Position numbers and translations under genes: made by a program. Positions 1-11,600 of a stretch of DNA of 11,600 nucleotides are shown piece by piece (the first letter of the stretch is position 1; every line of letters starts with the position of its first letter). The notes beneath the pieces are model-generated. The model searched no databases. It saw only the letters and a list, made by a program, of their open reading frames with translations, and was not told where the DNA came from. The stretch covers positions 1 through 11,600 of the IMG/VR virus record IMGVR_UViG_2778261569_000001; one strand, 5' to 3'. Origin of the DNA: a virus (Duplodnaviria; Heunggongvirae; Uroviricota; Caudoviricetes).

Positions 1-138
1 TGCAAATACCTTCCAACGAAACGCTCCAGAAATAAACGCAAGCCAATCCCAAAAGAATCTGACGTAAAAACCTTCAACTACACGGCTCACCTGTGGGATA
101 TCCGGTGGCTAAGACATCGTGCGAGGAATACAAGGTGA
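1..138 (+). CDS. NinE-like protein, C-terminal fragment (5' end lies outside the window)
   Basis: Frame 1 is open from base 1 to TGA at 136-138, translating ...[45 protein letters not shown]. This resembles my recollection of the lambda NinE C-terminus. Its stop overlaps the NinF start. Recall-based, not search-verified. Confidence 0.45.
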
Positions 139-305
139 TTGACCCAAATCGAAGTTACGAACAAGAAAGCGTCGAGCGAGCTTTAACGTGCGCTAACTGC
201 GGTCAGAAGCTGCATGTGCTGGAAGTTCACGTGTGCTCCGATTGCTGCGCAGAACTGATGAGCGATCCGAATAGCTCAATGTACGAGGAAGAAGACGATG
301 AGTGA
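135..305 (+). CDS. ninF: NinF-like small Cys-rich protein
   Basis: The track ORF 93..305 has no ATG. I place the start at GTG 135, preceded by GAGGA at 124-128, giving about 56 aa ([56 protein letters not shown]). This closely matches recalled lambda NinF (57 aa) and has a CxxC...CxxCC motif. Confidence 0.65.
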
Positions 306-516
306 TTCGTTTAGTAGCTCTGATTATTTGTATTTGGTTTTAGTACCTGTGGCAGAAGTATTCCGCTCTCGATTTCCTGAAGGCTCAGCACCATTTAATG
401 CCATTAGCACTTACTCAAAATGCAGAGTGAAATTTACAGGTAAGAGGCTGGAAAGAGAGTGGCAGCAATTCTGCAAAAAACATGACCTAAAAAATGACCC
501 TGAACTGGAGTATTAA
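298..516 (+). CDS. hypothetical small nin-region protein (72 aa)
   Basis: ATG at 298 overlaps the NinF stop (ATGA), and the TAA at 514-516 directly abuts the next ATG at 517. Tight packing in the operon suggests a real gene. I recognise no family. Confidence 0.45.
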   Translation: MSDSFSSSDYLYLVLVPVAEVFRSRFPEGSAPFNAISTYSKCRVKFTGKRLEREWQQFCKKHDLKNDPELEY

Positions 517-807
517 ATGGCTAATCTACGCAAAGAAGCGCGCGGCAGAGAATGCCAGGTACGTATTTACGGCATATGCAATGGCAATCCTGAAACTACA
601 GTTCTGGCACATTACCGGATGGCTGGAATTTGCGGAACGGGAATGAAGCCTGACGACCTGATCGGCGCATGGGCTTGTAGCGCGTGTCACGATGAAATCG
701 ACCGACGCACCCATAACCTCGACAACAAAGACACCAGACTTTACCACCTCGAAGGCGTTATCAGGACGCAGGCGATACTGCTGAAGGAGGGGAAGATTAA
801 GTCATGA
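517..807 (+). CDS. DUF1364 family protein (YbcO-like putative nuclease)
   Basis: 96 aa; N-terminus MANLRKEARGRECQVRIYGICNGNPETTVLAHYR with conserved Cys/His (CSACHDEID) resembles YbcO/DUF1364 proteins of lambdoid nin regions. Its stop overlaps the rusA start. Confidence 0.65.
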   Translation: MANLRKEARGRECQVRIYGICNGNPETTVLAHYRMAGICGTGMKPDDLIGAWACSACHDEIDRRTHNLDNKDTRLYHLEGVIRTQAILLKEGKIKS

Positions 808-1166
808 ACGAATATCAGTTTGTGCTTCCATACCCGCCGTCGCTGAACACCTACTGGCGAAGACGGGGAAGCCAATACTACATCAGCGATAAAGGCCAGA
901 AATACCGAAAAGACGTTCAGCAAATCATCCGCCAACTTAAGTTAGACATTTTCACCAAATCACGACTCCGCATCAAAGTCATCGCAGACGTTCCAGACTC
1001 CCGCCGCCGCGACCTCGACAACATCCTGAAAGGTTTACTCGACTCCCTTATCCACGCCGGATTTGCGGAAGACGACGAGCAATTCGATGACATTCGCGTA
1101 ATTCGTGGTGTGAAAGTACCAGGCGGACGGCTTGGAATAAAAATCACCGAACTGGAGAACGTATGA
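804..1166 (+). CDS. rusA: RusA Holliday junction resolvase (crossover junction endodeoxyribonuclease)
   Basis: 120 aa; motifs LPYPPSLNTYW, PDSRRRDLDNILKGLLDSL and DDEQ..D...I match the RusA family (DLP12/phage 82 type). ATG 804 overlaps the upstream stop (ATGA). Confidence 0.85.
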   Translation: MNEYQFVLPYPPSLNTYWRRRGSQYYISDKGQKYRKDVQQIIRQLKLDIFTKSRLRIKVIADVPDSRRRDLDNILKGLLDSLIHAGFAEDDEQFDDIRVIRGVKVPGGRLGIKITELENV

Positions 1167-1351
1167 ACGCCACAATTCAAACGATACCAGAGCTTCTTAT
1201 ACAGACACGAGGCAATCAGACCGAAGTGGCGAGGATGCTTTCCTGCGCAAGAGGAACGGTGCTCAAGTACAACCGAGACAGCAAAGGCGAACGTCACGTA
1301 ATAGTTAACGGCGTCCTGATGGTCAAACAGGGCAAGAGAGGAAGACGATGA
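1163..1351 (+). CDS. ninH: NinH-like protein
   Basis: 62 aa; IPELLIQTRGNQTEVARMLSCARGTVLKYNRDSKGERHVIVNGVLMV matches the recalled lambda NinH pattern (YGNQTEVARRL...RGTV.KY...HAIVNDVLMV). Overlapping start/stop codons with both neighbours. Confidence 0.75.
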   Translation: MNATIQTIPELLIQTRGNQTEVARMLSCARGTVLKYNRDSKGERHVIVNGVLMVKQGKRGRR

Positions 1352-1971
1352 GACTCGAAAGCGTAGCTAAATTTCATTCGCCAAAAAGCCCGATGATGAG
1401 CGACTCACCACGGGCTACGGCTTCTGACTCTCTTTCCGGTACTGATGTGATGGCTGCTATGGGGATGGCGCAATCACAAGCCGGATTCGGAATGGCTGCA
1501 TTCTGTGGTAAGCACGAACTCAGCCAGAATGACAAACAAAAGGCTATCAACTATCTGATGCAATTTGCACACAAGGTATCGGGGAAATACCGTGGTGTGG
1601 CAAAGCTTGAAGGAAATACTAAGGCAAAGGTACTGCAAGTGCTCGCAACATTCGCTTATGCGGATTATTGCCGTAGTGCCGCGACGCCGGGCGCAAGATG
1701 CAGAGATTGCCACGGTACAGGCCGTGCGGTTGATATATCAAAAACAGAGCTGTGGGGGAGAGTTGTCGAGAAAGAGTGCGGAAGATGCAAAGGCGTCGGC
1801 TATTCAAGGATGCCAGCAAGCGCAGCATATCGCGCTGTGACGATGCTAATCCCAAACCTTACCCAACCCACCTGGTCACGCACTGTTAAGCCGCTGTATG
1901 ACGCTCTGGTGGTGCAATGCCACAAAGAAGAGTCAATCGCAGACAACATTTTGAATGCGGTCACACGTTAG
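1348..1971 (+). CDS. Q: Late gene antiterminator Q (lambda type)
   Basis: 207 aa, the same length as lambda Q, and the translation appears near-identical to recalled lambda Q, including the Cys cluster CRDCHGTGR...CGRCKG (zinc finger). Followed by a pR'-like promoter. Confidence 0.9.
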   Translation: MRLESVAKFHSPKSPMMSDSPRATASDSLSGTDVMAAMGMAQSQAGFGMAAFCGKHELSQNDKQKAINYLMQFAHKVSGKYRGVAKLEGNTKAKVLQVLATFAYADYCRSAATPGARCRDCHGTGRAVDISKTELWGRVVEKECGRCKGVGYSRMPASAAYRAVTMLIPNLTQPTWSRTVKPLYDALVVQCHKEESIADNILNAVTR

Positions 1972-2013
1972 CAGCATGATTGCCACGGATGGCAACAAAT
2001 TAACGGCATAATA

Positions 2014-2055
2014 TTGACTTTTTGAATAAAGTTGGGTAAATTTGACATCAACGAT
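2014..2055 (+). promoter_or_regulatory. Late promoter pR' with qut element and promoter-proximal pause signal
   Basis: TTGACT at 2014-2019, 17-bp spacer, TAAATT at 2037-2042; AACGAT at 2050-2055 corresponds to the -10-like pause-inducing element of lambda pR'. The region is near-identical to recalled lambda pR'/qut. Confidence 0.7.
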
Positions 2056-2078
2056 GGATAAATGCACTCGTTAAATAA

Positions 2079-2114
2079 AGCCCTGAGTTAATAGCTCGGG
2101 GCTTTTTGCGTTTT
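2079..2114 (+). terminator. Intrinsic terminator (tR'-like) ending a short pR' leader RNA
   Basis: Stem AGCCCTGAG (2079-2087) pairs with CTCGGGGCT (2095-2103) over 9 bp with one G-U, 7-nt loop, then TTTT-GCG-TTTT. It lies about 30-60 nt downstream of the predicted pR' start. Confidence 0.7.
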
Positions 2115-2250
2115 AATCACGACCTTTCTGAAAGCACATCAAACCAAATACCAGACAGACAAAAATAATCACCTTATCCGCTGTGGCTACGGTGCGGTGT
2201 GCTTTGCATAAAAGAAAACCAGCGCAATGGCTGGCTTCGTGAAAGCGGGT

Positions 2251-2286
2251 GGCAAGAGGTTGCGCTAACAACCTCCTGCCGTTTTG
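2251..2286 (+). terminator. Terminator-like hairpin between tR' and S
   Basis: GGCAAGAGGTT (2251-2261) pairs with AACCTCCTGCC (2270-2280): 11-bp stem with one mismatch, 8-nt loop, followed by GTTTTG. Function uncertain (second terminator or RNA structure). Confidence 0.35.
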
Positions 2287-2385
2287 CCCGTGCATATCGG
2301 TCACGAACAAATCTGATTACTAAACACAGTAGCCTGGATTTGTTCTATCAGTAATCGACCTTATTCCTAATTAAATAGAGCAAAT

Positions 2386-2399
2386 CCCCTTATTGGGGG
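2386..2399 (+). promoter_or_regulatory. sdi-like stem-loop occluding the S Shine-Dalgarno
   Basis: CCCCT-TATT-GGGGG hairpin immediately upstream of the dual-start ATG-AAG-ATG of S, as in the lambda sdi structure that sets the S107/S105 ratio. Confidence 0.5.
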
Positions 2400-2405
2400 T
2401 AAGAC

Positions 2406-2729
2406 ATGAAGATGCCAGAAAAACATGACCTGTTAGCCGCCATTCTCGCGGCAAAGGAACAAGGCATCGGGGCAATCCTTGCGTTTGCAATGGCGTACCT
2501 TCGCGGCAGATATAATGGCGGTGCGTTTACAAAAACAGTAATCGACGCAACGATGTGTGCCATTATCGCCTGGTTCATTCGTGACCTTCTCGACTTCGCC
2601 GGACTAAGTAGCAATCTCGCTTATATAACGAGCGTGTTCATTGGCTACATCGGTACTGACTCGATTGGTTCGCTTATCAAACGCTTCGCTGCTAAAAAAG
2701 CCGGAGTAGAAGATGGTGGAAATCAATAA
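2406..2729 (+). CDS. S: Holin S (class I; S107 antiholin from Met1, S105 holin from Met3 at 2412)
   Basis: 107 aa [34 protein letters not shown]... essentially the lambda S sequence; dual-start motif Met-Lys-Met; predicted transmembrane segments. Confidence 0.9.
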
Positions 2730-3189
2730 TCAACGTAAGGCGTTCCTCGATATGCTGGCGTGGTCAGAGGGGACTGATAACGGACGTCAGAAAACCAGAA
2801 ATCATGGTTATGACGTCATTGTAGGCGGAGAGCTATTCACTGATTACTCAGATCACCCTCGCAAACTTGTCACGCTAAACCCCAAACTCAAATCAACAGC
2901 TGCAGGCCGTTACCAGCTTCTTTCCCGTTGGTGGGATGCCTATCGTAAGCAGCTTGGCCTGAAAGATTTCTCTCCGAAAAGCCAGGACGCTGTGGCATTG
3001 CAACAGATTAAAGAGCGTGGCGCTTTGCCGATGATTGATCGCGGTGATATCCGTCAGGCAATCGACCGTTGCAGCAATATCTGGGCTTCATTGCCGGGAG
3101 CTGGTTATGGTCAGTTCGAGCATAAGGCTGACAGTCTGATTTCAAAATTCAAAGAAGCAGGCGGAACGGTCAGAGAGATTGAGGTATGA
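2713..3189 (+). CDS. R: Endolysin R (lytic transglycosylase)
   Basis: 158 aa [24 protein letters not shown]... matches lambda R, including the catalytic Glu in WSEGT. Start overlaps the S 3' end; GGAG at 2703-2706. Confidence 0.9.
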
Positions 3190-3623
3190 GCAGAGTCACC
3201 GCGATTATCTCCGCTCTGGTTATCTGCATCATCGTCTGCCTGTCATGGGCTGTTAATCATTACCGTGATAACGCCATGACCTACAAAGAGCAGCGCGATA
3301 AAGCCATATCCATCATCGCTGATATGCAGAAGCGTCAACGTGATGTAGCAGAACTTGACGCCAGATACACAAAGGAGCTTGCTGATGCTAACGCGACTAT
3401 CGAAAGTCTCCGTGCTGATGTTTCTGCTGGTCGTAAGCGCCTGCAAGTCGCCGCCACCTGTGCAAAGTCAACGACCGGAGCCAGCAGCATGGGCGATGGA
3501 GAAAGCCCAAGACTTACAGCAGATGCTGAACTCAATTATTACCGTCTCCGAAGTGGAATCGACAGGATAACCGCGCAGGTTAACTACCTGCAGGAATACA
3601 TCAGGACGCAATGCCTTCGATGA
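3186..3623 (+). CDS. Rz: Rz i-spanin
   Basis: 145 aa; the N-terminal TM anchor [30 protein letters not shown] matches lambda Rz, followed by a coiled-coil-like periplasmic domain whose C-terminal half diverges from lambda. ATGA overlap with the R stop. Confidence 0.8.
3385..3570 (+). CDS. Rz1: Rz1 o-spanin (outer-membrane lipoprotein) embedded in Rz in the +1 frame
   Basis: ATG 3385 preceded by AAAGGAG at 3371-3377. 61 aa [27 protein letters not shown]... with signal peptide, lipobox LVVSAC and a Pro-rich segment. It lies entirely inside Rz. The track ORF 3355..3570 is the same frame with an earlier start. Confidence 0.7.
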
Positions 3624-3797
3624 TAGCGATAATTTTACTCATCATCCTTCACATCTAGCTCTGTAGACAGGGTGATGATCACTTCTGGAGTGAATCCAGA
3701 TTAAACATCTCATTGCTGATGCTTGATATTGAGCATCTGGCGCGCGGTAAGGGGCTGCGTTGAGATAAGAGCCAGTCATTACAAATACCAGGATTTA

Positions 3798-3821
3798 GCC
3801 TCGCATTTGCGGGGCTTTTTT
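3798..3821 (+). terminator. Intrinsic terminator downstream of Rz
   Basis: GCCTCGC (3798-3804), loop ATTT, GCGGGGC (3809-3815): 7-bp GC-rich stem with one G-U, followed by TTTTTT (3816-3821). Confidence 0.6.
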
Positions 3822-3969
3822 ACATCTGCAGTAAACCGCGCATCGCAGCGCGTAACAATCCCGAGTCTTTCAGAAAGCTGAGCCTGAGAATTGCCGTATA
3901 TGGTGGCGACCATCTCGGGGACGGCTTTTCTGTGCGAACAGGCTCATCTTTCTAAAAGGTAAAGACGCA

Positions 3970-4512
3970 ATGAACTACCCAACCGTTGTTAACGATATAG
4001 ATTTCAGAGACCTAATTTTTGTAGCAAACAACGATCCGGTTACAGATTCTTTTATGGTGGCAAAAGCATTTGGAAAGCTGCCGAAGAACGTGGTTCGTGA
4101 CATTGAACGAACCATAGAAGCTTGCCCTCCTGAGTTTGATACAAAGCTCAACTTTGAGCTTTGCTATAAAAACAATGAGTTACAGAATGGTAAGCCGCAA
4201 AAATTCTACCGTCTCCGCAAGGATGGGTTGATGCTTTTGGTTATGTCCTACACCAAAAAAGAAGCAATGCGTATCAAAATTGCTTACATCAACGCATTCA
4301 ACTGGATGTACGCCATGCTTCAGGTTGGTCATCGTCAATTTGAAGAAGAGAGAAATGCCGTAATGCTGGAGTACATGAAAGAGAAGGATGTTGCCAGCAT
4401 GTCAGGCCGCCTGCTTAATCGCTGGGGAAAAATTAAGAAGCCTCAGCTACTGGCGAGAATTGAACGCCTTGAACAGCACGGGCAAACCGTAATCCCCGGA
4501 CTCACCAATTAA
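3970..4512 (+). CDS. rha: Rha family phage regulatory protein
   Basis: 180 aa; the N-terminal domain matches the Phage_pRha pattern (..VAKAFGK...NVVRDIER......EF...NFE......G.....YRLRKDG.MLLVMSYTKKEA...K.AYINAFN.M). It occupies the position of P22 orf201/rha between the lysis genes and terminase. Confidence 0.7.
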   Translation: MNYPTVVNDIDFRDLIFVANNDPVTDSFMVAKAFGKLPKNVVRDIERTIEACPPEFDTKLNFELCYKNNELQNGKPQKFYRLRKDGLMLLVMSYTKKEAMRIKIAYINAFNWMYAMLQVGHRQFEEERNAVMLEYMKEKDVASMSGRLLNRWGKIKKPQLLARIERLEQHGQTVIPGLTN

Positions 4513-4739
4513 CGGCAGTACAGCGAAACAACCCAAGCCAGTAAGTGGGGAAATAACACTGGCAGCCACTGAAAGATGAACCTCCAGCCTTATGGCAAAA
4601 AAGATTCTTTGTGGTGGCGGACTGATGGAAAGACATCGGTTATTGCAGAGGCCATTCAATGAGTGGTCTCGACAATGGCTTATACCCTACACGGGATAAC
4701 TTAACTGATATCCCTTTTAACGGATAAACGGAGCCAACA

Positions 4740-4982
4740 ATGGCAGAGATTATTCCCATGACTGAAGAACAGAAATTCCAGTTAGAGATTTACAAACTGG
4801 TCATGAACCAGAACGCAGCCGCAGAAGAAGCATTTCAGTTCATTGGCACTGACGAGCTGAAGCTTGAGTTATTCAAAATTCACTTCCAGTCAGGCGGCGC
4901 TAATTCGGATATCACGACCCGCACTATCGAAGCGGTGCGTAAATCGAAGGAAGCTTTAGACCTGTTCACCACCGGAGCATAA
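4740..4982 (+). CDS. hypothetical protein (80 aa)
   Basis: ATG ORF of 80 aa with no recognisable domain. Its position and length resemble P22 orf80 upstream of the small terminase gene. GGAG-like sequence upstream. Confidence 0.5.
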   Translation: MAEIIPMTEEQKFQLEIYKLVMNQNAAAEEAFQFIGTDELKLELFKIHFQSGGANSDITTRTIEAVRKSKEALDLFTTGA

Positions 4983-4984
4983 AC

Positions 4985-5056
4985 ATGGCAACTCAAGGTT
5001 TCGACAACCCATCCAAATTCCGCGATGAATGGGATAAGCAAGCAGAAGGGAAATAA
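4985..5056 (+). CDS. possible micro-ORF (23 aa, MATQGFDNPSKFRDEWDKQAEGK)
   Basis: ATG at 4985 lies 10 nt after GGAG (4972-4975) and fills the gap between the 80-aa ORF stop and the small terminase start. Too short to support by composition alone. Confidence 0.15.
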   Translation: MATQGFDNPSKFRDEWDKQAEGK

Positions 5057-5061
5057 TCAAT

Positions 5062-5487
5062 ATGGCGACTGAGAAAAAGAATGTCGGTCGCCCTTCGGAT
5101 TACCTGCCGGAGGTGGCTGATGATATCTGTGCGCTGCTTGCCTCCGGGGAAAGTCTGGTTAAGGTTTGCAAGCGCCCCGGCATGCCAGCAAAGGCTACTG
5201 TATTTCGCTGGCTGTCAGAGCATGAAGAATTTAGAGACAAGTACGCGAAGGCAACTGAGGCACGAGCTGATTCTATTTTCGAAGAGATATTCGAAATTGC
5301 TGACACTGCGATTCCAGATGCTGCTGAGGTGGCAAAGGCAAGACTTCGCGTTGATACCCGCAAATGGGCGCTGGCCAGAATGAATCCCCGTAAGTATGGC
5401 GACAAGGTAACTAATGAGCTTGTCGGCAAAGACGGCGGCGCAATCCAGATTGAAACATCACCGATGAGCACTCTGTTCGGAAAATGA
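5062..5487 (+). CDS. Terminase small subunit (Sf6 gp1-like)
   Basis: 141 aa; GRPSDYLPEVADDICALLASGESLVKVCKRPGMPAKATVFRWLSEHEEFRDKYAKA is the characteristic HTH DNA-recognition N-terminus of Sf6/P22-like small terminases. Its stop overlaps the large subunit start. Confidence 0.8.
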   Translation: MATEKKNVGRPSDYLPEVADDICALLASGESLVKVCKRPGMPAKATVFRWLSEHEEFRDKYAKATEARADSIFEEIFEIADTAIPDAAEVAKARLRVDTRKWALARMNPRKYGDKVTNELVGKDGGAIQIETSPMSTLFGK

Positions 5488-6899
5488 CCTCGATTAATCC
5501 TATCTTTGAACCGTTCATTGAGGCGCATCGCTACAAAGTCGCCAAAGGCGGTCGAGGTAGCGGTAAGTCATGGGCAATTGCTAGGCTGCTTGTTGAAGCG
5601 GCGCGTCGTCAGCCAGTGCGTATTCTCTGCGCTCGTGAACTGCAAAACAGTATCAGCGATTCGGTAATCCGGTTGCTTGAAGATACCATCGAGCGTGAAG
5701 GGTATTCGGCCGAGTTTGAAATTCAGCGTTCAATGATTCGTCATCTCGGAACGAATGCTGAATTCATGTTCTACGGCATAAAAAACAACCCGACTAAGAT
5801 TAAATCGCTCGAAGGCATTGATATCTGCTGGGTGGAAGAAGCGGAAGCGGTAACGAAGGAATCATGGGATATCCTGATACCGACCATCCGTAAGCCGTTC
5901 TCTGAAATATGGGTGAGCTTTAACCCGAAAAACATCCTCGACGATACCTATCAGCGATTCGTTGTAAATCCTCCCGATGATATTTGCCTGCTGACGGTGA
6001 ACTACACCGACAACCCGCACTTTCCTGAAGTTCTCCGTCTGGAGATGGAAGAGTGCAAACGCAGAAATCCGACACTGTATCGTCACATCTGGCTTGGTGA
6101 GCCAGTGAGCGCAAGTGATATGGCAATCATCAAACGTGAATGGCTTGAAGCCGCAACCGATGCGCACAAGAAACTCGGATGGAAGGCGAAAGGCGCTGTT
6201 GTCTCTGCGCATGACCCGTCAGATACAGGACCGGATGCTAAAGGTTATGCATCGCGTCACGGTTCGGTGGTTAAGCGCATTGCCGAAGGTCTGCTGATGG
6301 ACATCAACGAGGGTGCTGACTGGGCTACTTCGCTGGCGATTGAAGACGGCGCTGATCATTACCTGTGGGATGGCGATGGTGTCGGTGCAGGGCTACGCAG
6401 ACAGACAACGGAAGCGTTCTCCGGCAAGAAAATCACCGCCACGATGTTCAAGGGCAGCGAATCGCCATTCGATGAAGACGCGCCGTATCAGGCCGGAGCA
6501 TGGGCTGATGAAGTCGTACAGGGTGACAACGTTCGCACTATTGGCGATGTTTTCCGCAATAAGCGAGCGCAATTCTATTACGCACTGGCTGATAGGCTGT
6601 ATCTGACATATCGGGCGGTTGTTCACGGTGAGTATGCAGACCCCGACGACATGCTGAGTTTCGACAAAGAAGCGATAGGCGAGAAGATGCTGGAGAAGCT
6701 GTTTGCAGAACTGACGCAGATTCAGCGCAAATTCAATAACAACGGGAAGCTTGAGCTAATGACTAAGGTCGAAATGAAGCAGAAGCTCGGTATTCCATCT
6801 CCTAACCTGGCTGATGCGCTGATGATGTGTATGCATTGCCCGGAGTCGGCTGCGCAACCCGACTATTCCAGTTACTCAATTCCTTGTGGTGTAGGTTGA
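5484..6899 (+). CDS. Terminase large subunit (ATPase/nuclease)
   Basis: 471 aa; Walker A VAKGGRGSGKSWA near the N-terminus and a Walker B-like ICWVEEAEA; C-terminal nuclease domain. The length matches Sf6-type large terminases. Confidence 0.9.
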   Translation: MTSINPIFEPFIEAHRYKVAKGGRGSGKSWAIARLLVEAARRQPVRILCARELQNSISDSVIRLLEDTIEREGYSAEFEIQRSMIRHLGTNAEFMFYGIKNNPTKIKSLEGIDICWVEEAEAVTKESWDILIPTIRKPFSEIWVSFNPKNILDDTYQRFVVNPPDDICLLTVNYTDNPHFPEVLRLEMEECKRRNPTLYRHIWLGEPVSASDMAIIKREWLEAATDAHKKLGWKAKGAVVSAHDPSDTGPDAKGYASRHGSVVKRIAEGLLMDINEGADWATSLAIEDGADHYLWDGDGVGAGLRRQTTEAFSGKKITATMFKGSESPFDEDAPYQAGAWADEVVQGDNVRTIGDVFRNKRAQFYYALADRLYLTYRAVVHGEYADPDDMLSFDKEAIGEKMLEKLFAELTQIQRKFNNNGKLELMTKVEMKQKLGIPSPNLADALMMCMHCPESAAQPDYSSYSIPCGVG

Positions 6900-6900
6900 T

Positions 6901-9099
6901 ATGGCAGAAAAAAAGATGACTGACTGGCATCGCAAGGTGCTGTGCAACTTTGATAATGCCTGGTCAGCAACGCAGGATATGCGTGAGCAGATTATTGAGG
7001 CTCAACGTTTCGTCCGGGTATCCGGCGCACAGTGGGAAGGCAGCACAAACGCTGGTTACTCATTTGATGAAGGCAGGTTTGAGCATTACCCGCGCTTTGA
7101 ACTGAATAAGATTGCCCGTGAATGTGATCGCATCATTGGCGAGTATCGACAGAATCGCATCAGCGTTAAATTCAGGCCGAAGGACGATAAGGCATCGGAA
7201 GCGTTAGCCGAAAAGATGAATGGTAAATTCCGCGCTGACTATCAGGAAACATCCGGTGGTGAAGCGTGTGATAACGCATTTGATGATGCTGTAACGGGCG
7301 GATTCGGTTGTTTCCGCATGTGTGCCGATTACGAAGATGAAATGGATCCGAGTAACGAGCAACGCCGTATAAGCCTTCTCCCTGTTTACGACCCAGCGAC
7401 ATGCGTCTTCTTCGATCAGGACAGCAAGCAATATGACCGCTCTGATGCTATGTGGGCTATGGAAATGTTCTCCATGACGCCTAAAGCGTTCGAAGCTGAA
7501 TACCCTGATTCCATCGCGGCAAGCCTTTCTCGTGATGACACTGGTACTCAGTATGACTGGTCAACGCCCGATGCCATCTATGTTGGACGCTACTACGAAG
7601 TTCGCATAGAGAAGGTGAAGCTCACAGCATGGCGTAACCCTGTTAGCGGAGAAACGGCAATCTATGATGAAGATCAAATCAAAGATATTGTCGACGAGCT
7701 GACCGATGGCGCATTCGAACTGATTGGTGAGCGGACAGTGAAGAAACGCCGAGTTTATTGCGGTCTTCTGTCTGGCGCTGAATGGCTGGAAGAACCGAAG
7801 CGTATTCCGGGCGAACATATTCCTCTCATCCCGGTATATGGGCGTCGCTCATTTGTTGATAATCAGGAGCGAATCGAAGGTCACGCAGCAAAAGCGATGG
7901 ATGCACAGCGTCTTGAGAACCTGATGGTTTCCATGATTGCAGATAACGCTACTCAGGCTGGCGGTGATGGCATTCCTGTAGTTGATGTTGACATGATTCC
8001 TGGTCCTCTCGCCACTCATTGGGCGGAGCGCAACAAAAAGCGCCCGGCGTTCCTGCCGATGGTCAGTCTGAAAAACAAAAACGGAGATATTACTGCGCAG
8101 GCTCAGGTCAGCAGTTATACACCTCCGACACAAATGCCTCCTGCTCTTGCCGGGCTATTGCAGTACACCGGAACGGCTATTCAGCAAATTACAGGTGCGT
8201 CGCAGCTTGAGAACATGCCGAGCAACGTCGCCACCGATACCGTTGATAGCATCTTTAACCGGATGGACACGCAGTCCTATATCTACATGGACAATATGGC
8301 TAAATCCATGCGCCGCGCTGGCGTCGTGTGGCTTTCTATGGCTCGTGAAGTCTATGGCAGTGATACGCCGATGCGTATCGTTAATGAGGACGGCAGCGAT
8401 GACGTGGCGCTGATGACTGGTGAAGTGGTTGACCGTCAGACAGGGCAGGTTATCGCGCTTAACGACCTTTCGCAGGGTAACTATGAAGTGACTGTCGATG
8501 TCGGTCAGTCGTTCGCTACTCGCCGTGACGCAACGGTTAAGTCGTTACTTTCCATGCTGGCACTTATCCCACCAGGAACGCCGAAGCACGACCTTGTATC
8601 GTCGATGATTCTCGACAATATGGACGGCGAAGGGATGGACGACCTTAAAGAATACAACCGCAATCAGTTGCTTCTGTCTGGAGTTATCAAGCCGAGAACG
8701 CCAGAAGAGCAGCAAATGGTTGAGCAGGCGAAACAACAACAGGCCAGTCAGCCAGATCCGGCTATGGTTGCTGCGCAAGGTCAGCTTCTTGCTGGTCAGG
8801 CTGAATTGCAGAAAGCGCAGAACGAACAGGCATCCATTCAGGTTAAAGCATTCCAGGCACAGACTGATGCTCAGGTTGCAGCGGCAAATGTTGTGAAAAT
8901 CCTCGCATCTGCCGATAGCCAGCAGAAATCTGATATCCGCGAGGCTCTGAAACTGCTAGGACAGTTCCAGCAACAGCAAGGAGACAATGCCCGTGCTGAT
9001 GCAGAGCTTGTCCTGAAAAGTCAGGCACAGGGCCATGCGCAGCGCATGGACATCAGCAGTATCCTGCAAAAACCAACTCAGCAACAACCACAGCAGTAA
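6901..9099 (+). CDS. Portal protein (P22/Sf6-like) with long C-terminal helical barrel
   Basis: 732 aa; conserved segments RRVY...GEHIPLIPVYG and C-terminal TPEEQQ..E.A...Q..DPAMV.AQG.LL.GQAEL.KAQN ... ARA.AEL.LK......QRMDI..ILQ resemble P22 gp1. ATG one base after the terminase stop. Confidence 0.9.
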   Translation: MAEKKMTDWHRKVLCNFDNAWSATQDMREQIIEAQRFVRVSGAQWEGSTNAGYSFDEGRFEHYPRFELNKIARECDRIIGEYRQNRISVKFRPKDDKASEALAEKMNGKFRADYQETSGGEACDNAFDDAVTGGFGCFRMCADYEDEMDPSNEQRRISLLPVYDPATCVFFDQDSKQYDRSDAMWAMEMFSMTPKAFEAEYPDSIAASLSRDDTGTQYDWSTPDAIYVGRYYEVRIEKVKLTAWRNPVSGETAIYDEDQIKDIVDELTDGAFELIGERTVKKRRVYCGLLSGAEWLEEPKRIPGEHIPLIPVYGRRSFVDNQERIEGHAAKAMDAQRLENLMVSMIADNATQAGGDGIPVVDVDMIPGPLATHWAERNKKRPAFLPMVSLKNKNGDITAQAQVSSYTPPTQMPPALAGLLQYTGTAIQQITGASQLENMPSNVATDTVDSIFNRMDTQSYIYMDNMAKSMRRAGVVWLSMAREVYGSDTPMRIVNEDGSDDVALMTGEVVDRQTGQVIALNDLSQGNYEVTVDVGQSFATRRDATVKSLLSMLALIPPGTPKHDLVSSMILDNMDGEGMDDLKEYNRNQLLLSGVIKPRTPEEQQMVEQAKQQQASQPDPAMVAAQGQLLAGQAELQKAQNEQASIQVKAFQAQTDAQVAAANVVKILASADSQQKSDIREALKLLGQFQQQQGDNARADAELVLKSQAQGHAQRMDISSILQKPTQQQPQQ

Positions 9100-9189
9100 T
9101 TAACCCATAACGTGCAATGGCTGTCTTTATGAGGCCTGGCACCCTATTGCCTTCCGATGGGCTGAACATCGAGTAAACAGGGGTAACAA

Positions 9190-10110
9190 ATGGACCAGAT
9201 GGCAGAAAACACACCAGAAGTTGAAATCGAAACCGACGCGTCAGAGCAGATTCCTGATGATGTCGAACTGGCTGAAGAAGTCGAAACAGAAGATGGCAGT
9301 GAGTCCTCCGGCAATGATGCAGAGGAAGCTACTGAAACTGATGACGACGAATCAGAACAGGAATTCTACTTTGGTGACGAAAAGCTGGATTCGCCAACCA
9401 GCGAAGATGGCGCAGAGCATGGACTGGTAAAACACCTGCGCAAGACGATTAAAGAGAAAGACCGCGAGCTGAAAGAGCTGATGCGTCAGTCTCAGAAACC
9501 CGTCGAGCAGCAGCCGGTAATCACTCAACCACCGCGAATGCCAAAACTGGATGATGAGGACATCGGTTTCGATGAAGAAATCTACCAGCAACGCATGGCT
9601 AAGTGGGCAGAGGATAACGGCAAGTACCAGCAACAGGAGATGGCTCGCAAGCAGAAGGAGCAGGAGCTTCAGGCTGCCTATCAAGAGCGATTATCCAAAT
9701 ATCAGCAACGTGTTAAGGCTCTCAAAGTTCCTGGCTATCAGGAAGCAGAACAGGCCGTACTCGAGGAAATCCCCATCGAGACACAAAACGCGATCCTGTT
9801 TGAGTCAGAGAAGCCGGAAATCGTTGTTCTGGCACTCGGTCGCAACGCTGAACTGCGCAAGCAACTGGCAGAAGCTACCAACCCCGTAGCAATTGGTCGT
9901 CTGCTGGAACGTATCGAATCGAAGGCCAGAATCATGCCAAAAGCAAAAACCACGGCAGCCACAACCCCGACAGTTAAGGGGAGCAACGGCGCAGTAATCA
10001 ACAACCTCGGCAAATTGAAAGCCAAGGCGCTGGAAACTGGTGACTGGACGCCGTATTTCGCCGCTAAAAAGGCAAAAAAAATAACCTATCGGAGCATTAA
10101 GCATGGCTAA
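9190..10110 (+). CDS. Scaffolding protein (P22 gp8-like)
   Basis: 306 aa; highly acidic N-terminus, central coiled-coil-like region rich in Q/E/K/R, basic C-terminal helix-turn-helix-like tail (KAKALETGDWTPYFAAKKAKK). Sits between portal and coat as in P22-like phages. Stop overlaps the coat start. Confidence 0.7.
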   Translation: MDQMAENTPEVEIETDASEQIPDDVELAEEVETEDGSESSGNDAEEATETDDDESEQEFYFGDEKLDSPTSEDGAEHGLVKHLRKTIKEKDRELKELMRQSQKPVEQQPVITQPPRMPKLDDEDIGFDEEIYQQRMAKWAEDNGKYQQQEMARKQKEQELQAAYQERLSKYQQRVKALKVPGYQEAEQAVLEEIPIETQNAILFESEKPEIVVLALGRNAELRKQLAEATNPVAIGRLLERIESKARIMPKAKTTAATTPTVKGSNGAVINNLGKLKAKALETGDWTPYFAAKKAKKITYRSIKHG

Positions 10111-11229
10111 CCAATTAGCAAAAGACCTTGAAATCATGTTCGAAAACTACGTTGAAGGCTTTGAGGCCGCCTGCGTAGTTTCCCGTAACGCTAAAAAATT
10201 CCGTCCCGGTGATACAGCAATGCAGCGAGCAGGTGATGTTCTGTATCGTCCGCAGCATTACCACATGAATATTGAGGAAGGCCTAGACCTCAGCGGCAAA
10301 ACGCCAACAGCACTGGTTCAGCGCCTTGTTCCTTCTGTGTTCAAGGAGCCGAAAAACATTCTGTACACTCTGGATGCGCGTGAAATGCGTGACCCGGAAC
10401 ATAAAACTGAAGCTGGTCGAGCCGCAGGTATGCGCCTTGCTGCACAGATTGACTCTGACCTGATTTCCATGGTCACGCAGCGTGCTACTAACGTGATCAC
10501 GATGGCTGACTCAACCACAGGTTCACAGGGCCGTGATTTGTGGAACTGTGCGGCAGGTATTGATGCCACCATGACGGCGATTGGTGTACCGCAGGGTATC
10601 AACCGTCGCTCTTTCTGGAACCCCTTCAACTACAAAGACCTTGCTGGCGAGCTTGGTCACCGTGCCTACGCTCAGGGCGCAACCCTGACAGCATACGAAA
10701 AAGCGCAGATCCCTCCGGTTGCTTCCTTTGATAGCTACAAGACCGATATTTCTGGTCGATTACCGAAAGGAAGCGCTGAATCCTTGACAGTATCAGGCCA
10801 ACCTGAACACAAGGTTGAAGCGAAAGATTCAAATGGTATGCCAGTTGATAACCGACAGGGGACTATTACGGTATCTGCATCTGGCTTGCAGGTTGGTGAT
10901 GCGTTCACCATTGCCGGTGTGAATTCCGTACACCAGATCACAAAAGATACCACCGGGCAACCGCAGGTATTCCGTGTTCTGGCTGTTAGCGGAACTACCG
11001 TAACAATCTCTCCAAAGATTCTCCCTGTTGAAAATACCGATGTTGCGAGTCGTCCATATGCAAACGTCGATGCCAAACCGGCAGCATCAGCAGCAATCAC
11101 CATTCTCAACAAGAACGCAGCACCTGCTAACCTGTTCTGGGCTGATGGTTCTGTTGAGCTGATGTACGGCAAACTGGCGTTCCCGACTGGTCAGGGTCCA
11201 CAGGTAATGACAGCAACCACCGAGCAGGG
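10103..11229 (+). pseudogene. Major coat protein gene (P22/Sf6 gp5-like), 3' end displaced by IS insertion
   Basis: Reading frame from ATG 10103; the C-terminal region contains NLFWADGSVEL, resembling the P22 coat motif NVFWADDAIRI. The frame runs into IS sequence at about 11230 and stops at 11278 after 15-16 IS-encoded residues. About 45 C-terminal residues are missing compared with P22-like coats of roughly 420-430 aa. Confidence 0.75.
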
Positions 11230-11600
11230 TGAACCGCCCCGGAAATCCTGGAGACTAAACTCCCTGAGAAAGAGGTAAACAGGATGACTAAAAATACTCG
11301 TTTTTCCCCCGAAGTCCGTCAGCGGGCGATTCGTATGGTTCTGGAAAGTCAGGATGAATATGACTCACAGTGGGCGGCAATTTGTTCCATTGCCCCAAAG
11401 ATTGGCTGTACGCCGGAGACTCTGCGTGTCTGGGTTCGCCAGCATGAGCGGGATACCGGGGGCGGTGATGGTGGGCTCACCAGCGCTGAACGTCAGCGTC
11501 TGAAAGAGCTGGAACGTGAAAATCGTGAACTGCGCCGCAGTAACGATATCCTTCGCCAGGCTTCCGCTTATTTTGCGAAGGCGGAGTTCGACCGCCTCTG
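11230..11600 (+). mobile_element. IS3-family insertion sequence (IS629/IS1203-like), left end; continues past window edge
   Basis: Terminal sequence TGAACCGCCCCGG... beginning at 11230 (typical IS3-family TG end), followed by an RBS and the OrfA start at 11284. The coat-gene homology breaks exactly here. Confidence 0.8.
11284..11600 (+). CDS. IS3-family transposase OrfA (partial, 3' end outside window)
   Basis: [60 protein letters not shown]...[41 protein letters not shown]: HTH plus leucine-zipper OrfA typical of IS629-like elements. RBS AGAGG at about 11271. Confidence 0.85.

What the first reader, a model, noticed from the sequence alone, without database searches (positions are those of the whole stretch)
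10103..11600. Coat protein gene interrupted by an IS3-family (IS629-like) element
Coat-like coding sequence is replaced abruptly at about 11229/11230 by an IS terminus (TGAACCGCCCCGG...) followed by an IS OrfA gene. The major capsid gene therefore lacks its last ~45 codons at this locus, so the prophage is probably unable to form capsids (a cryptic or defective prophage) unless the IS excises precisely. The insertion also places an outward-facing mobile element inside the structural operon, which could be polar on downstream head and tail genes.
Basis: partly seen in the sequence, partly recalled or inferred. Interest (0 to 1): 0.6.

Follow-up and report, generated by a model that had tools for sequence, protein, structure and literature searches.

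The report
IS1203 insertion splitting a prophage coat gene
A common jumping-gene element (IS1203, the IS629 type) has landed inside the capsid gene of a P22/CUS-3-like prophage of an E. coli O111-type strain, cutting off its last 41 codons. This is a real but ordinary way for prophages in these strains to be disabled.

Summary
A P22-family coat gene starts at 10103 and is in frame through 11229. At 11230 the left end of IS1203 begins (TGAACCGCCCCGG...), followed by the orfA gene from 11284. The window is an entire draft contig (NJZZ01000066.1, GCA_002462085.1) that stops 371 bases into the IS.

I found the partner contig of the same assembly (NJZZ01000056.1). It carries the last 558 bases of the IS, a second copy of GGG (a 3-base target duplication), the missing 41 coat codons and intact downstream head and DNA-ejection genes. 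Removing the IS and one GGG in silico restores a 417-residue coat. That protein differs at one residue from the coat of E. coli O111:H- 11128 and is about 98% identical to the structurally solved phage CUS-3 coat.

So this is a simple insertion, not a deletion or a naturally short gene. The ORF in the window encodes 376 coat residues plus 15 residues read from the IS. It lacks the conserved C-terminal segment equivalent to P22 residues 388-430, which includes L401, where L401D is lethal. Loss of capsid formation is therefore a strong inference but untested.

The undisrupted site is present in 406 of 5,426 complete E. coli genomes, and none has this junction. Minor corrections: 41 codons are displaced, not about 45, and polarity is unsupported. 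The case is ordinary and of low interest.

The parts
10103..11229 (+). 5' part of the P22/CUS-3-type major capsid (coat) gene. It holds codons 1-375 plus the first two bases of codon 376. Gly376 is preserved because the first IS base completes GGT.
   Evidence: PF11651 at 244 bits, profile positions 1-383 of 423. One residue differs (P35 versus S35) from the 417-aa coat of O111:H- 11128 over residues 1-376. The intact 11128 orthologue matches the CUS-3 coat of PDB 8skg at E = 1.5e-275.
11227..11229 (.). Left copy of the 3-bp target-site duplication, GGG.
   Evidence: The same GGG follows the IS right end on the partner contig (L005 559-561). The uninterrupted site in 11128 and in other genomes has a single GGG.
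11230..11600 (+). Left 371 bases of IS1203 (an IS3-family element of the IS629 type), running to the contig end.
   Evidence: 371/371 identical to L001 6314-6684, a 1,310-bp element annotated as IS1203. The query 11100-11600, mostly this IS stretch, matches 25,124 places in 3,825 of 5,426 E. coli genomes.
11230..11255 (+). Left terminal inverted repeat (IRL), TGAACCGCCCCGGAAATCCTGGAGAC.
   Evidence: Compared with the reverse complement of the right end: the first 13 of 13 bases are identical and 22 of the first 25 match. The termini are 5'-TG...CA-3'.
11230..11278 (+). IS-derived tail of the truncated coat ORF. After the first IS base completes codon 376, 15 foreign codons follow ([15 protein letters not shown]) and then a TAA stop at 11276-11278.
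   Evidence: Translation and the alignment with intact coats.
11284..11600 (+). IS1203 orfA (helix-turn-helix transposase N-terminal protein), incomplete at the contig end.
   Evidence: PF01527 HTH_Tnp_1, E = 2.3e-12. The ATG is at 11284. The identical copy in 11128 is annotated as a transposase with a programmed frameshift.
9190..10110 (+). Scaffolding protein gene immediately upstream. It is context, and it carries a possible second lesion: an A8 run at 10074-10081.
   Evidence: It aligns with the P22 and O111 scaffolding proteins. The window and L003 have A8 where six relatives have A7.

Best explanation
A single copy of IS1203 (1,310 bp, IS3 family, IS629 type) transposed into codon 376 of the major capsid gene of a P22/CUS-3-like (Lederbergvirus-type) prophage. 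The host is an E. coli strain of, or close to, the O111:H8 STEC lineage. The IS lies in the same orientation as the late operon and duplicated the 3-bp target GGG.

The gene is split in two. The upstream part now encodes 376 coat residues plus 15 residues read from the IS left end, and it stops 5 nt before the orfA start. The last 41 codons sit just beyond the IS right end on another contig, followed by intact gp4, gp10, needle and ejection-protein genes.

The truncated protein lacks the conserved C-terminal part of the HK97-type fold, equivalent to P22 coat residues 388-430. The prophage therefore most likely cannot build procapsids (inferred). It could be rescued only by exact IS excision, by recombination with an intact coat allele, or by a helper phage.

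The window ends inside the IS only because short-read assembly breaks at this multicopy repeat.
For: Shown:
- The junction is at 11229/11230, and the IS part is 371/371 identical to the 11128 IS1203 copy.
- The window equals the whole contig NJZZ01000066.1.
- I predicted the right-junction ORF under the simple-insertion model and found it exactly (P0002, 68 aa, 100% identity). It lies on contig NJZZ01000056.1 of the same assembly.
- That contig reads: IS positions 753-1310 (558/558 identical), then GGG, then the coat remainder.
- Removing the IS and one GGG in silico gives a 417-aa coat identical to the 11128 coat except S35P.
- The intact coat covers Pfam profile positions 1-423, the truncated one only 1-383.
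- The solved CUS-3 coat (8skg, 416 residues) aligns to the very end of the intact protein.
- The breakpoint G376 aligns with P22 G387, so the lost segment covers P22 L401 and W410.
- The uninterrupted site is present in 406 of 5,426 complete genomes, including at least 16 at 100% identity, mostly O111 strains.
- Downstream genes on the partner contig have normal lengths.

From the literature:
- P22 L401D is lethal, and W410 and I366 form a stabilising pocket in the P-domain (bioRxiv 10.1101/626804).
- IS629, IS1203 and IS600 are amplified in O111:H8 and related STEC. The IS-excision enhancer (IEE) can remove IS3-family elements and reactivate genes (PMC9397093, PMC9943667).
Against: No experiment shows that the truncated coat is non-functional or that the prophage is non-inducible.

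IS positions 372-752 are not assembled. Physical linkage of the two contigs through one intact IS is therefore inferred from the matching duplication and orientation, not read directly. With 35-40 IS1203 copies in related genomes, later recombination between IS copies could have separated the two halves.

The rest of the prophage in this strain (integrase, immunity and replication genes, tailspike) was not examined.
Confidence: 0.93

Rival explanations
1. IS-adjacent deletion. The IS first sat just downstream of the coat gene, as in O111:H- 11128, and a deletion from its left end then removed the last 182 bases. On this view the 3' coat codons are absent from the genome.
For: In 11128 an IS1203 in the same orientation lies 183 bp further downstream (L001 6314). 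IEE-associated deletions next to IS3-family elements are documented (PMC9397093).
Against: The partner contig of the same assembly has the IS right end abutting GGG and the exact coat remainder. It does not abut the ATG-flanked site used in 11128. The small ORF after the coat gene, which is split in 11128, is intact here (L005 730-918).
Confidence: 0.01
2. Assembly artefact. A chimeric contig was produced by mis-joining coat reads to a repeat, and the real gene is intact.
For: The window is a draft short-read contig that ends inside a high-copy repeat.
Against: The identical junction is present in contigs from at least two assemblies. The reciprocal right junction, with a matching 3-bp duplication, is in the same assembly. 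The left and right junctions fit together to the base.
Confidence: 0.02
3. A simple insertion occurred, but the two halves are no longer adjacent. Later recombination between IS1203 copies, an inversion or translocation, separated the left and right junctions.
For: Related O111 genomes hold 35-40 IS1203 places. IS positions 372-752 are unassembled, so linkage is not read directly.
Against: Both junction contigs carry the same prophage in the same orientation. Together they are collinear with the closest complete prophages. Nothing suggests a rearrangement.
Confidence: 0.04
4. A naturally shorter, functional coat variant.
For: RefSeq names the 391-aa product 'P22 phage major capsid protein family protein' without a pseudogene flag.
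Against: Its last 15 residues are encoded by the IS inverted repeat. The cluster members listed are 417 aa, apart from one of 419 aa. Pfam profile positions 384-423 are missing.
Confidence: 0

Closest known systems
IS1203 / IS629 (IS3 family) insertions in prophage genes of STEC O157, O26 and O111
   Same: The element sequence is identical to IS1203 copies in O111:H- 11128. It has the same 3-bp duplication and TG...CA ends, and it inactivates a prophage gene in the same way. The same prophage carries IS1203 at other sites in other O111 strains: scaffold and the post-coat ORF in 11128, gp4 in E2863, ninH in 05-3004, and the gp16-like gene in 7-16 37A.
   Different: Only the insertion site differs (coat codon 376). 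None of the 5,426 complete E. coli genomes searched has this junction. It is seen only in a few draft assemblies.
Phage CUS-3 coat protein (PDB 8skg; I-domain 6mnt) and the P22 coat protein gp5
   Same: The restored 417-aa protein is near-identical to the CUS-3 coat and about 30% identical to P22 gp5. The gene order is the same: terminase, portal, scaffold, coat, gp4, gp10.
   Different: At this locus the gene ends at residue 376. It lacks the segment equivalent to P22 residues 388-430.
IEE-mediated IS excision that reactivates a gene (IS600 in lacZ of O121:H19)
   Same: An IS3-family element with a 3-bp duplication sits inside a coding sequence in an STEC lineage reported to carry iee. Exact excision would restore the gene (PMC9397093).
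   Different: Whether this strain has iee was not tested, and no excised allele from this strain was seen. There is also no obvious selection for reversion of a prophage coat gene.

Membership tests
IS3 family, IS1203 (IS629 type) | Near-identity of the nucleotide sequence to a named IS1203 copy | tested here: met
   371/371 bases (window) and 558/558 bases (partner contig) are identical to L001 6314-7623, annotated as an IS1203 family transposase. No ISfinder reference was available, so IS1203 versus IS629 rests on the RefSeq name.
IS3 family, IS1203 (IS629 type) | Imperfect terminal inverted repeats ending 5'-TG...CA-3' | tested here: met
   IRL is TGAACCGCCCCGG... The reverse complement of the right end is TGAACCGCCCCGG... 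The first 13 of 13 bases are identical and 22 of the first 25 match.
IS3 family, IS1203 (IS629 type) | 3-bp direct target-site duplication | tested here: met
   GGG at window 11227-11229 and at L005 559-561, with a single GGG in empty sites. The 11128 copy has the duplication ATG.
IS3 family, IS1203 (IS629 type) | orfA with a helix-turn-helix domain, and orfB with a DDE (rve) integrase domain | tested here: met
   orfA matches PF01527 in the window. The 3' part of orfB on the partner contig matches PF00665 rve.
IS3 family, IS1203 (IS629 type) | A -1 programmed frameshift joining orfA and orfB, and a full length of about 1,310 bp | not testable with these tools
   IS positions 372-752 of this copy are not assembled. 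The identical-ended reference copy is 1,310 bp and is annotated with a programmed frameshift.
P22-type major capsid protein (Pfam PF11651) | Profile match above the curated cutoff | tested here: met
   244 bits against a cutoff of 24.
P22-type major capsid protein (Pfam PF11651) | Full-length protein including the conserved C-terminal segment | tested here: not met
   The truncated protein covers profile positions 1-383 of 423, the intact orthologue 1-423. Residues 377-417 are replaced by 15 IS-encoded residues.
P22-type major capsid protein (Pfam PF11651) | Position in a P22-like head module (terminase, portal, scaffold, coat, gp4, gp10) | tested here: met
   Gene order in the window and on the partner contig, compared with CUS-3 and P22.

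The most novel reading that the evidence does not exclude
The coat-gene IS could act as a reversible switch rather than a dead end. O111:H8-lineage strains are reported to carry the IS-excision enhancer, so exact removal of IS1203 and one GGG would restore a perfect coat gene. The scattered, strain-specific IS1203 hits in this one prophage (at least six sites across O111 strains) might then reflect ongoing selection to silence, and occasionally revive, a P22-like prophage. A second speculative reading is that the expressed 391-aa truncated coat interferes with capsid assembly of superinfecting CUS-3-like phages.
Probability: 0.07. Interest if true: 0.4.

Novelty: already known. Interest (0 to 1): 0.1.

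Why it matters
The practical value is for annotation and for judging whether a prophage is viable. This P22/CUS-3-like prophage should be scored as carrying a disrupted major capsid gene. The RefSeq protein WP_077886741.1 is a truncation-fusion product, not a genuine capsid variant.

The case also shows that a contig ending inside an IS can be resolved by predicting the reciprocal junction ORF and finding it on another contig of the same assembly. Biologically it is one more example of IS1203/IS629 eroding prophages in STEC, which is well documented.

Tried and rejected
- **Adjacent deletion.** I first suspected a deletion from the left end of the IS, because 11128 has a co-oriented IS1203 183 bp further downstream. 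The partner contig ruled this out.
- **Junction in complete genomes.** I looked for the exact junction in 5,426 complete E. coli genomes and found none. The two full-coverage hits were each two separate pieces.
- **RNA families.** An Rfam scan of the window at gathering thresholds found nothing. The AL1L frameshift pseudoknot of the IS lies mostly beyond the contig end.
- **RNA fold.** Folding across the junction and the orfA start pairs AUCCUG in the IRL with CAGGAU at the orfA start codon. It is no better than shuffled sequence (z = -1.2), so I make no claim from it.
- **Terminators in the IS.** A scan of the full IS found only one weak terminator-like site on the operon strand. Polarity by intrinsic termination is therefore not supported.
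- **Scaffold protein.** Pfam has no model that matches it.
- **Literature.** A search for a published description of this prophage in O111 returned nothing specific.

Full report
**Observation.** The ORF at 10103..11278 encodes 391 residues. It matches Pfam PF11651 (P22 coat protein) at 244 bits but covers only profile positions 1-383 of 423. At 11230 the sequence becomes TGAACCGCCCCGG..., and an ORF starting at 11284 matches the transposase helix-turn-helix family PF01527.

A BLAST comparison with E. coli O111:H- 11128 (locus L001) splits the region cleanly. Window 9543..11229 is the scaffold and coat genes, with 1 substitution and 1 indel in 1,687 bases. Window 11230..11600 is 371/371 identical to the start of a 1,310-bp element annotated 'IS3-like element IS1203 family transposase'.

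**What the window is.** An exact-protein look-up shows that the window is the whole of draft contig NJZZ01000066.1 (11,600 bases) of assembly GCA_002462085.1. The same 391-aa protein is called on four contigs, including one from GCA_900015835.1 (L003) that carries the same junction.

The contig ends inside the IS because the element is highly repeated. The query 11100-11600, mostly IS sequence, matches 25,124 places in 3,825 of 5,426 complete E. coli genomes, with 35-40 places in O111 chromosomes.

**Insertion or deletion.** In 11128 the coat gene is intact (417 aa, L001 5004-6257). A co-oriented IS1203 sits 183 bp further downstream, flanked by the duplication ATG. This raised the possibility that the window allele arose by a deletion from the left end of that IS.

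I tested the alternative by building the right junction expected from a simple insertion with a 3-bp duplication. In that model an IS-internal reading frame runs in frame into the coat remainder and gives a 68-aa ORF. A protein search recovered exactly this sequence (P0002, 100% identity). It is encoded on contig NJZZ01000056.1 of the same assembly (L005).

That contig reads as follows: IS positions 753-1310 (558/558 identical to the 11128 copy), then ...GGTTCA | GGG | CGCTACGCTGATC..., then the coat remainder through its stop. After that come the small post-coat ORF, gp4, gp10, needle, gp14-like, gp7, gp20 and gp16 homologues at normal lengths.

Joining window 1-11229 to L005 562 onward restores a 417-aa coat identical to the 11128 coat except S35P. 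The event is therefore a simple IS1203 insertion with target duplication GGG (window 11227-11229 and L005 559-561). The deletion model is refuted. The one gap is IS positions 372-752, which are unassembled, so linkage of the two contigs through one IS is inferred rather than read.

**Identity of the phage and its host lineage.** The closest complete-genome matches to the window are prophages of O111:H8 strains (2009C-3675, 7-16 37A and others, 99.3-99.9% identity). The closest phages are Kapi1, CUS-3, vB_EcoP-720R6 and Sf101, all P22-like; CUS-3 is classified in Lederbergvirus.

The intact coat aligns over all 416 residues with the solved CUS-3 coat (PDB 8skg, E = 1.5e-275). Its I-domain matches 6mnt.

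**Consequence for the protein.** The truncated product keeps residues 1-376 and adds [15 protein letters not shown], read from the IS inverted repeat. In an alignment with P22 gp5, the breakpoint G376 corresponds to P22 G387. The lost residues 377-417 correspond to P22 388-430.

That segment includes P22 L401 and W410. These are P-domain residues that make inter- and intra-capsomer hydrophobic contacts with W61 of the E-loop. L401D is lethal, and charged substitutions at W410 give cold- and temperature-sensitive phenotypes (bioRxiv 10.1101/626804). Losing the whole segment should abolish proper folding or assembly. This is an inference from homology, not a test.

**Reversibility and polarity.** Exact removal of the IS and one GGG restores the gene. 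The literature reports that IS629, IS1203 and IS600 are amplified in O111:H8 and related STEC. It also reports that the IS-excision enhancer, found in O111:H8 among other serotypes, promotes excision of IS3-family elements and can reactivate a gene (PMC9397093, PMC9943667). Whether this isolate carries iee was not testable here.

The polarity suggestion is not supported. The IS is co-oriented with the operon. A consensus scan finds only one weak terminator-like site on that strand inside the IS. The window also encodes the late antiterminator (1348..1971, PF03589).

**Population context.** A 400-base probe across the restored site is uninterrupted in 406 of 5,426 complete genomes. At least 16 are 100% identical, nearly all O111 or related bovine and veal isolates. 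No complete genome has the window's junction.

The same prophage carries IS1203 at other places in other O111 strains: the scaffold gene and the post-coat ORF in 11128, gp4 in E2863, ninH in 05-3004, the gp16-like gene in 7-16 37A, and one copy in 02-3334. Many O111 genomes have an IS-free head module. The coat insertion is one of several sporadic, strain-specific hits.

**Verdict.** The finding is an ordinary, well-understood kind of event: an IS1203/IS629 insertion that inactivates a prophage structural gene in an IS-rich STEC lineage. Novelty is 'already known' and interest is low.

Noticed in passing
window 10074-10081 (3' end of scaffold gene 9190..10110): There is a run of 8 A here where CUS-3, 11128, E2863, 05-3004, 7-16 37A and 2009C-3675 all have 7. 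The extra A removes the normal stop after ...AAKKAKK and adds ITYRSIKHG, giving 306 aa instead of 297. The scaffold gene then overlaps the coat start. The second assembly (L003) shares it. It could be a real second lesion in the coat-binding C-terminus of the scaffold or a homopolymer sequencing error.
   Followed up: partly
L001 3177-4390 and 6314-7623; L004 about 6890-8160; L007 about 600-1900; L008 about 30205-31500: The same P22-like prophage carries IS1203 at different sites in different O111 strains: scaffold, post-coat ORF, gp4, ninH and the gp16-like gene. Many other O111 genomes have none in the head module. The hits look repeated and independent.
   Followed up: partly
window 10103-11278: The 391-aa truncation-fusion product is in RefSeq as WP_077886741.1, 'P22 phage major capsid protein family protein', with no pseudogene flag. 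The cluster members listed are 417 aa, apart from one of 419 aa.
   Followed up: yes
L005 482-688 (partner contig NJZZ01000056.1): The right junction creates a 68-aa ORF (P0002). It fuses 27 residues read from an alternative frame of the IS right end to the last 41 coat residues. It is probably meaningless, but it is called as a gene.
   Followed up: yes
window 11276-11286: The stop of the truncated coat ORF (TAA, 11276-11278) lies 5 nt upstream of the orfA ATG (11284). Late-operon transcription and translation would therefore run right up to the transposase start. A predicted pairing of IRL AUCCUG with CAGGAU at the start codon is not better than shuffled sequence (z = -1.2).
   Followed up: partly
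L001 6262-6281 (equivalent to L005 about 693-712): A GC-rich hairpin followed by a T-run lies directly after the coat stop codon. A stem-loop is annotated at the same position in P22. In this strain it is displaced downstream of the IS together with the coat remainder.
   Followed up: no
window 10205 (coat codon 35): The window, L003 and CUS-3 have Pro35, whereas O111:H- 11128 has Ser35. This is the only coat residue that differs from 11128.
   Followed up: yes
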